A DNA stretch of 64,000 nt from Eledone cirrhosa (taxonomy: Eukaryota), in the NCBI GenBank assembly GCA_964016885.1, contig OZ024756.1, positions 32,302,001-32,366,000 on the forward strand, written 5' to 3'. Positions 36,213 through 36,433 of this stretch are shown in pieces (the stretch's first letter is position 1; every line of letters starts with the position of its first letter). The notes beneath the pieces were generated by a model. That model ran no database searches. It was not told where the DNA came from and was given only the letters and a program-made list of their open reading frames with translations. The position numbers were made by a program, and so were the translations under genes.

Positions 36213-36216
<4 letters not shown>

Positions 36217-36433
36217 AACGAGTAGGACCCCGACAACTGAGCTCAAGCCGTTTCGACGGTTAATTCTCGACTAAAAAAAAAAAATTTTTTTTTTAGTCCA
36301 TAATTAGCCGTCGAAACGGCTTGAACTCAGCCGTCGGGGTCCTACTCGTTCCCATTACCCACTCTACTACCCTAAGTATTTAGTACTTTGGTGCATTATG
36401 GTCCATCTGGTTCCTTACCACATTTCCTTCATT
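36213..36433 (+). mobile_element. Family H1 asymmetric hairpin in (TA)n
   Basis: Arms at about 36215-36284 and 36285-36352 around an A-run/T-run axis. GAAA-CGGCT-tgaactc-AGCCG-TC-gggg at 36313-36339. Unpaired tail to 36433. Confidence 0.82.

What the first reader, a model, noticed from the sequence alone, without database searches (positions are those of the whole stretch)
36213..36433. Family H1: (TA)n-anchored fold-back retro-elements whose hairpin axis is hammerhead stem II
Seven copies (21838, 35238, 35538, 36213, 43132, 54168, 55721) all abut (TA)n, and five share the same distal end. Five contain GAAA-CGGC-loop-G(C/T)(C/T)G-TC-gggg, a well-formed 3' half of a type I hammerhead (stem III plus GUC site), with different loops but a conserved stem. 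In 36213 and 43132, and more loosely 35538, the CUGANGA box is missing. It is replaced by an inverted copy of downstream sequence that folds at the stem preceding GAAA, with variable arm length. Hypothesis: PLE cDNA snaps back at stem II and self-primes, producing MITE-mimicking palindromes. If general, this is a ribozyme-structure-guided route to abundant genomic hairpins.
Basis: partly seen in the sequence, partly recalled or inferred. Interest (0 to 1): 0.75.

Follow-up and report, generated by a model that had tools for sequence, protein, structure and literature searches.

The report
Penelope hairpins mark RNA start site
These short mirror-shaped repeats are the clipped ends of a known kind of jumping gene, present more than ten thousand times in this genome; their two halves were likely copied separately into the two ends of a cut TA repeat, and they likely stop where the element's RNA begins, inside its self-cutting RNA motif, which would make the poorly understood copying step of these elements testable.

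Summary
The seven copies are real. They are 5'-truncated ends of a 3.55-kb Hydra-clade Penelope-like element (RT plus GIY-YIG ORF) whose pseudo-LTR carries a type I hammerhead, mostly with a UUGANAA core. The genome holds 22,032 exact tail ends and 10,139 exact fold-backs.

The axis is not stem II: the true 5' strand of stem II is missing. Both arms stop 11-23 nt upstream of GAAA, in loop II (104 of 155 ends), also in copies with no inverted arm. Snap-back fails as a general rule: seven pairs share no sequence, and the tailless arm is the longer one at 19 loci against 4.

Best reading: each end of a cut (TA)n primes its own cDNA at one of two fixed sites. Both run off a capped RNA 5' end and are joined. 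Support: an untemplated G at one initiator-like A (22 of 32), a TATA-like box 29 nt upstream, and long copies passing the site (19 of 19). A second sharp end lies at the predicted ribozyme cut (35 of 69). No RNA was examined. The scan reached the same reading earlier on other DNA of this genome.

The parts
36164..36213 (.). (TA)n target, left flank
36212..36275 (-). Short (tailless) arm, element +42 to -21; outer end is the proximal fixed end, ending in TAT
   Evidence: 19,564 exact proximal ends in the genome
36276..36291 (.). A/T filler at the head-to-head junction (part of the A12/T10 run)
   Evidence: similar T runs in L004, L055, L136
36292..36435 (+). Long (tail-bearing) arm, element -21 to +122
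36295..36295 (+). A(-18) of TTAGT: inferred main transcription start
   Evidence: commonest 5' end, 20 of 155; untemplated G before it in 22 of 32
36301..36339 (+). 3' half of the type I hammerhead: 3' strand of stem II, GAAA, stem III, GUC, GGGG of stem I; predicted cut between 36335 and 36336
   Evidence: peak of ends at +23
36356..36435 (+). 80-nt tail between the two fixed 3' ends; runs on into the ORF region in full-length copies
36433..36473 (.). (TA)n/(CA)n right flank
21838..21900 (+). Second subfamily; simple tailless copy starting at -18
35242..35289 (+). Second subfamily; inverted piece (-1 to -18) joined to a tailless arm starting at about +15
35539..35782 (.). Old asymmetric head-to-head pair with a tail at both outer ends (coordinates approximate)
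43131..43328 (.). Head-to-head pair: tailless arm +42 to -18 (43131-43191, minus) and tail arm -14 to +122 (43192-43328, plus)
54168..54303 (-). Second subfamily; simple tail-bearing copy starting at about -11
55720..55828 (.). Tail arm starting at the predicted cut (+23; 55720-55819, minus) with a 9-nt tailless partner (+34 to +42)

Best explanation
The repeats are short insertions of a Hydra-clade Penelope-like retroelement whose two arms were likely reverse-transcribed separately from the two ends of a cut (TA)n and likely ran off the capped 5' end of an RNA that starts inside loop II of the element's hammerhead. Shown by sequence: family identity, two fixed 3' ends (+42 and +122, both ending in TAT), one wall of 5' ends at -11..-23, and untemplated G at A(-18). 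Inferred: (1) a core promoter (TATA-like box at -47, initiator-like TTAGT at -18, weaker starts at -22 and -13) lies in the hammerhead loop, so the mRNA begins with only the 3' half of the ribozyme; (2) the endonuclease cuts (TA)n and each DNA end primes internally, one at +42 and one at +122, through TA pairing; (3) after about 60 and 140 nt both cDNAs reach the cap; (4) their ends are trimmed and joined, often through 1-5 nt of microhomology, giving a near-palindrome. A minority of cDNAs end at +23, the predicted cut, which suggests ribozyme-cleaved templates. Long and tandem copies come from RNAs that contain the whole loop.
For: Family: ORF and motifs. Wall: per-base stop rate 0.126 (tail arms) and 0.139 (partners) at -11..-23 against 0.011 or less elsewhere; 104 of 155 ends. 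Two primings: 7 of 65 pairs share no sequence; partner longer at 19 loci against 4 (p 0.003); 8 of 12 partners of tail arms cut short at +15 or later still stop at the wall. RNA end rather than structure: 19 of 19 independent long ORF-continuing copies pass the site, against 6 of 58 tail arms. Untemplated G: 22 of 32 at A(-18) among 97 loci counted by hand (p 2e-8), while G is never the natural base at -19 (0 of 80). It repeats in a second subfamily with another loop sequence (12 of 99 loci). TATTTAAA lies 29 nt upstream of A(-18) in 41 of 80 run-through copies. Six loci join units that start at -12..-21 and run into the ORF. An extra G marks capped templates in L1 (PMC11702581, passage). Two internal RT start sites define the tail in the Anolis element (PMC11167929).
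Against: No RNA, cap or promoter assay was seen; the start site rests on DNA ends only. Full-length copies beginning at -18 are rare (L090 is the only one seen; 0 of 19), which a simple mRNA model does not predict and which needs the extra step that the mRNA loses or rarely uses its downstream priming sites. Ends spread over 13 nt, so trimming or several starts must be assumed. Older subfamilies have a poorer TATA match. Arms agree at 199 of 205 polymorphic calls and 42 of 65 pairs are symmetric, which snap-back also explains. The 90-locus sample is the first 26 Mb of one contig and young subfamilies only; its end positions were curated by eye. The rate of extra G per end at -18 could not be fixed, because TA from the target hides ends at -17 to -19.
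Confidence: 0.62

Rival explanations
1. Twin priming as above, but the wall is a reverse-transcriptase stop made by RNA structure (folded hammerhead, loop II hairpin) or by a bound protein, not the RNA 5' end.
For: The wall begins just after the 3' strand of stem II; loop II can form a small hairpin; full-length copies starting at -18 are rare.
Against: Long copies pass the second pseudo-LTR 19 of 19 times. The enzyme would have to cross stems I, III and II and then stop in a loop. The untemplated G is concentrated at one A in two subfamilies with different loops.
Confidence: 0.2
2. One reading: one cDNA folds back at or near stem II and copies itself.
For: 42 of 65 pairs are symmetric within 4 nt; arms agree at 199 of 205 polymorphic calls. 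Self-priming was proposed for PLE palindromes (PMC3846280, passages).
Against: The 5' strand of stem II and most of loop II are absent from fold-backs. Seven pairs share no sequence. The tailless arm is longer at 19 loci against 4. The wall exists without inversion. One pair (L155) differs at two diagnostic sites. The short arm ends at a fixed site that is also used by copies standing alone.
Confidence: 0.1
3. The wall is a real RNA 5' end, but made by processing (a nuclease cut, decay stop or splice site at the AG-rich loop) and not by transcription initiation.
For: The loop has a pyrimidine run followed by AG dinucleotides; ends are spread over 13 nt.
Against: No common upstream exon is joined at those AGs in the 90 loci; the untemplated G and the TATA-like spacing fit a capped start better.
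Confidence: 0.07
4. A MITE (DNA transposon derivative) or one palindrome copied as a unit.
For: Hairpin shape, high copy number, TA flanks.
Against: Arms are unequal, the sequence is continuous with an RT ORF, and 32 different junctions were counted by hand among 50 loci.
Confidence: 0.01

Closest known systems
Hydra clade of C-terminal EN+ Penelope-like elements, e.g. Hydra-1_Obim (Craig et al. 2021, PMC8557442; passages and supplement part 2 of 59 read)
   Same: RWK-like motif (RWR), DKT, CxCx5C linker, GIY-YIG without the two CCHH cysteines, CxxC and CxH near the end, (TA)n target, hammerhead in the pseudo-LTR; an inverted 5'-truncated copy is noted for Penelope-13_HM.
   Different: Unit is 3.53-3.56 kb against mostly under 3 kb. 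Listed Hydra hammerheads have a CUGANGA core, short loop II and tiny loop III; this one has UUGANAA, a stem-loop II of about 55 nt and a palindromic loop III. It differs in sequence from the listed Hydra-1_oBim hammerhead.
EN+ PLE insertions with an inverted pseudo-LTR and a one-sided tail (Adineta vaga, PMC3846280; D. virilis Penelope, PMC2377424; passages read)
   Same: Head-to-head inverted 5'-truncated copy, tail at one end only, partial tandems, promoter within the pseudo-LTR.
   Different: Tail is 80 nt, not 30-40. Here most insertions are ORF-less ends stopping at one site. PMC3846280 reads the palindromes as self-priming; the data here point to two primings.
Anolis Poseidon element PAc (Frangieh et al. 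2024, PMC11167929; parts 1-2 of 4 read)
   Same: Two internal RT start sites bounding the tail, both DNA strands cut and extended, AT-rich target.
   Different: There the start site is described as not homologous to the cut DNA; here both ends finish in TAT. That paper found no RNA-seq reads ending at the ribozyme cut; here genomic 5' ends peak at it.
L1 twin priming and cap-derived extra G (PMC11702581, passages read)
   Same: Both target ends prime, inverted junction with microhomology, extra G on run-off.
   Different: In L1 the second primer lands at variable internal sites and the two pieces hardly overlap; here both sites are fixed and the arms overlap by about 60 nt.
PLE hammerheads with U3-A8 core (Schistosoma Cercyon; Cervera and de la Pena 2014, PMC4209133; parts 1-2 of 4 read)
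   Same: U3-A8 covariation, long helix II, palindromic loop III.
   Different: Stable 5-6 bp helix III; long loop II that holds the inferred promoter.

Membership tests
Penelope-like element, EN+ | Single ORF with RT and C-terminal GIY-YIG endonuclease | tested here: met
   About 718 aa from the first Met, with FDIESYY and YRDDG and VIY...YIG. Pfam scan of the ORF itself gave no RT hit; 1 of 15 aligned proteins hit RVT_1; Atlas look-alikes carry GIY-YIG and RVT_1.
Penelope-like element, EN+ | Pseudo-LTRs from partial tandems, inverted 5'-truncated copy, one-sided tail | tested here: met
Penelope-like element, EN+ | RT phylogeny places it among PLEs | not tested
   No tree with named reference PLEs was built.
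Hydra clade | RWK motif, DKT, CxCx5C linker, no CCHH, CxxC and CxH, (TA)n target | tested here: met
   Motifs read against the definition (RWR in place of RWK).
Hydra clade | Length generally under 3 kb | tested here: not met
   Unit 3,531-3,558 bp; described as typical, not defining.
Type I hammerhead ribozyme | Three helices around the conserved core, cleavage triplet GUC | tested here: met
   Minimum-energy fold of a young full-length copy is the three-way junction, though not more stable than shuffles (z -0.92); the other 4 of 5 folded copies did not give it. 84% of cells paired, little covariation. Positions 3 and 8: U-A 58, C-G 12, C-A 10 of 80.
Type I hammerhead ribozyme | Rfam hammerhead model match | tested here: not met
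   No match in the window or on the hammerheads of 6 loci.
Type I hammerhead ribozyme | Self-cleavage | not testable with these tools
   Indirect only: 35 of 69 nearby 5' ends fall at the predicted cut (hand count).
MITE | Uniform terminal inverted repeats, fixed interior, transposase partner | tested here: not met
   Unequal arms, 32 junctions in 50 loci, RT partner.
Non-LTR retrozyme | Tandem monomers each with a complete hammerhead | tested here: not met
   The window copies hold half a hammerhead; only L188 fits.
Pol II core promoter | Capped transcripts starting at the initiator | not testable with these tools
   Sequence signs only; the TATA and initiator consensus are recalled, not from a call.

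The most novel reading that the evidence does not exclude
The element keeps its promoter inside its own ribozyme. The mRNA starts in loop II and cannot cut itself at its 5' end, while the downstream hammerhead cuts off the 3' priming sites. The enzyme therefore mostly copies only the first 60-140 nt of its own mRNA from both ends of a break, littering the genome with more than ten thousand hairpins, and full-length tandem copies come from cut, possibly circular unit-length RNA. The genome would then record transcription start, cap and in vivo ribozyme cleavage at base resolution.
Probability: 0.3. Interest if true: 0.75.

Novelty: new variant of a known kind. Interest (0 to 1): 0.52.

Why it matters
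How Penelope-like elements make inverted ends and tails, and whether their hammerheads cut in vivo, are stated as open in PMC8557442 and PMC11167929. This family gives thousands of independent insertion junctions that name exact positions: two priming sites, a start site and a cut site. Each can be tested with one RACE or one in vitro assay. It also shows a route by which a retroelement makes MITE-like hairpins that repeat annotation could misfile.

Tried and rejected
RNA evidence: no RNA holder listed; read laying was not used. Rfam: no hammerhead match at the elements; the one weak HH9 hit in L188 lies outside the element. Pfam and PDB sequence searches did not recognise the ORF. One search was mis-specified and missed the youngest four-C core, so core counts are taken; the first block had a faulty pattern and was redone. 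The best-hit set is biased towards long arms and was not used for end statistics. Arm concordance does not separate snap-back from two primings on one RNA. Near-identity of units within tandem arrays does not separate a circular template from later DNA duplication. A downstream promoter element was looked for by eye and not found. Literature searches listed no paper describing twin priming, a start site in hammerhead loop II, or cut-site ends for PLEs; only listings were seen for most hits, and subscription papers are not covered. Of the supplement of PMC8557442, only part 2 of 59 and search rows were seen.

Full report
Numbering: the G of the hammerhead GAAA is 0. The predicted cut is +22/+23, the proximal 3' end +42 and the distal 3' end +122.

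1. Observation. All seven copies are present. The motif spanning GAAA occurs 6 times in the window against 0.07 by chance. In 36213 the short arm runs +42 to -21 on the minus strand, the long arm -21 to +122 on the plus strand, with an A12/T10 run between them. 43132 has arms ending at -18 and -14. 21838 starts at -18 and 54168 at about -11, without inversion. 55721 starts at +23 (or +22). Rfam gives nothing in the window.

2. Identity. A genome search gave 2,921 candidates, of which 40 were scored, and 26 further inverted matches beside them. Longer copies run upstream through a complete hammerhead, a 3' UTR of about 1.2 kb and an ORF. The ORF (about 718 aa from the first Met) has RT motifs, RWR, DKT, CxCx5C, a GIY-YIG region without the CCHH cysteines, CxxC and CxH. 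These match the Hydra clade definition (PMC8557442). A database search found 683 relatives, the listed 120 at 37-53% identity; Atlas look-alikes carry GIY-YIG and RVT_1. Pfam did not recognise the ORF itself. The unit is 3,531-3,558 bp and occurs in partial tandems and arrays. Exact-match counts: 22,032 distal ends, 19,564 proximal ends, 10,139 fold-backs with a spacer up to 30 nt, 217 copies running on into the ORF.

3. Hammerhead. A young full-length copy folds at minimum energy into the type I three-way junction, with no stability excess over shuffles (z -0.92); the other four copies folded did not give this fold. Pairing is 84% over 17 rows with little covariation. Among 80 run-through copies, positions 3 and 8 are U-A in 58, C-G in 12 and C-A in 10; the 12 C-G copies were selected. 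The U3-A8 core is known from Schistosoma PLEs (PMC4209133). Stem II closes a long loop, and its 5' strand lies at -56..-48.

4. Where the arms end. I took the first 90 of the 100 listed tail matches, all on one contig and unselected for their 5' side; positions were curated by eye. Of these, 65 have an inverted partner, 19 are simple truncations, 2 are direct jumps and 4 run out of view. 104 of 155 5' ends lie at -11..-23. The stop rate per base there is 0.126 for tail arms and 0.139 for partners, and at most 0.011 elsewhere. No end falls at -45..-63, where a true stem II snap-back would end. The wall is also present without inversion (6 of 10 at risk). 61 of 65 partners end at +37..+45, nearly all at +42. 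Both fixed ends finish in TAT.

5. Snap-back or two primings. Under snap-back the tail arm must be the template and reach at least as far 5'. Instead the partner is longer by 5 nt or more at 19 loci and shorter at 4 (p 0.003). In 7 pairs (L056, L063, L101, L126, L129, L144, L154) the tail arm ends 3' of +42 and shares no sequence with its partner, mostly with 2-4 nt of microhomology at the join. Later central deletion could shorten arms but would not favour one side. Against my reading: 42 of 65 pairs are symmetric within 4 nt, and arms agree at 199 of 205 polymorphic calls (mismatch 2.9% against 2.3% background). Both arms therefore come from one RNA or one source, which both models allow; L155 differs at two sites. 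32 different junctions among 50 loci (hand count) exclude one palindrome copied as a unit.

6. What the wall is. (a) Of the first 30 ORF-continuing loci, 19 independent long copies all pass -11..-23 in the upstream pseudo-LTR, against 6 of 58 tail arms (Fisher p 3e-13). The other 6 independent loci are chains of units that start at -12..-21 and break off in the first 940 nt. (b) Among 97 distinct junctions with G or C next to (TA)n, 32 have an untemplated G: 22 before A(-18), 5 before A(-13), 1 before A(-22) and 4 elsewhere (hand count; p 2e-8 against the spread of ends). G is never natural at -19 (0 of 80). A second subfamily with another loop shows G before the same A in 12 of 99 loci, and none of its listed ends extends beyond about -23 (hand count; the pattern reaches only to about -25; no run-through copy of this subfamily was seen). 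(c) TATTTAAA lies 29 nt upstream of A(-18) in 41 of 80 run-through copies; older copies match less well. TTAGT and TCATT resemble the invertebrate initiator (recalled). An extra G marks capped templates in L1 (PMC11702581), and D. virilis Penelope is transcribed from within its pseudo-LTR (PMC2377424). Weak point: only one full-length copy starting at the wall was seen (L090).

7. Cut-site ends. Among 69 distinct junctions with 5' ends at +17..+26, 35 start at +23, the predicted cut; +22 has 3, +24 has 3-4, +20 has 7 and +26 has 10, mostly tiny fold-backs (hand count; p 2e-17). This suggests in vivo cleavage. An RT stall 2 nt before stem III, and CpG decay of +22 ends, are not fully excluded. 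The class is small: 57 reverse-strand matches against 705 for the wall (the patterns differ, so the ratio is rough).

8. Mechanism. Shown: identity, two fixed 3' ends, the wall, untemplated G, arms that cannot be copies of each other. Inferred: promoter in loop II, capped run-off, priming of both target ends at +42 and +122 as in PAc (PMC11167929), and end joining. Speculative: the downstream hammerhead removes the 3' priming sites from the mRNA, and cut or circular unit-length RNA yields the arrays (proposed in PMC4209133).

9. Novelty. The clade, the inverted-copy-plus-tail layout and PLE hammerheads are published. My seven searches listed no paper on twin priming, a loop II start or cut-site ends in PLEs. 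Papers seen: PMC8557442 passages and supplement part 2 of 59; PMC11167929 parts 1-2 of 4; PMC4209133 parts 1-2 of 4; PMC3846280, PMC2377424 and PMC11702581 passages; bioRxiv 10.64898/2026.07.22.740005 part 1 of 5. Earlier scan notes on other DNA of this genome reached the same readings. They are AI notes, not evidence; my reading was logged before I saw them. Verdict: a new member of a known clade with an unusually legible and testable insertion record.

Noticed in passing
L188:486-2760 (G000:C2:356029300-356032700): About 7.5 tandem copies of a 299-nt unit with a complete hammerhead whose loop II is deleted (-43 joined to -18), ending at the tail: a retrozyme-like derivative of this element.
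   Followed up: partly
L190-L193, L097: Arrays of 2-4 full units plus partial units; units differ by 0-7 bases within an array and 14-30 between arrays. One array is preceded by about 42 or more copies of a 55-nt ORF piece.
   Followed up: partly
L159, L160/L161, L163, L176, L177, L179: Direct chains of units that start at -12..-21 and break off at +168..+940; L160 repeats one 257-nt unit twice. Looks like template jumping after run-off.
   Followed up: partly
listings; L030, L157: A recurrent untemplated GC before -17 in both subfamilies. Unexplained; possibly misreading of a modified first base plus the cap.
   Followed up: no
L053, L121: Tailless arm lacks the whole stem III hairpin through a deletion between two short direct repeats.
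   Followed up: no
L033, L035, L039, L041: Related families with CUGAUGA cores and different loop II sequences, sharing GAAA-CGGC and a similar tail.
   Followed up: no
window 35000-35240 and 35345-35530: Other repeat sequence beside the 35238 and 35538 copies; the stretch near 35400-35520 resembles the flank of L148.
   Followed up: no
window, several places (e.g. 15968, 23771, 29515, 32139): Other CTGANGA...GAAA motifs, probably hammerheads of unrelated Penelope-like families.
   Followed up: no
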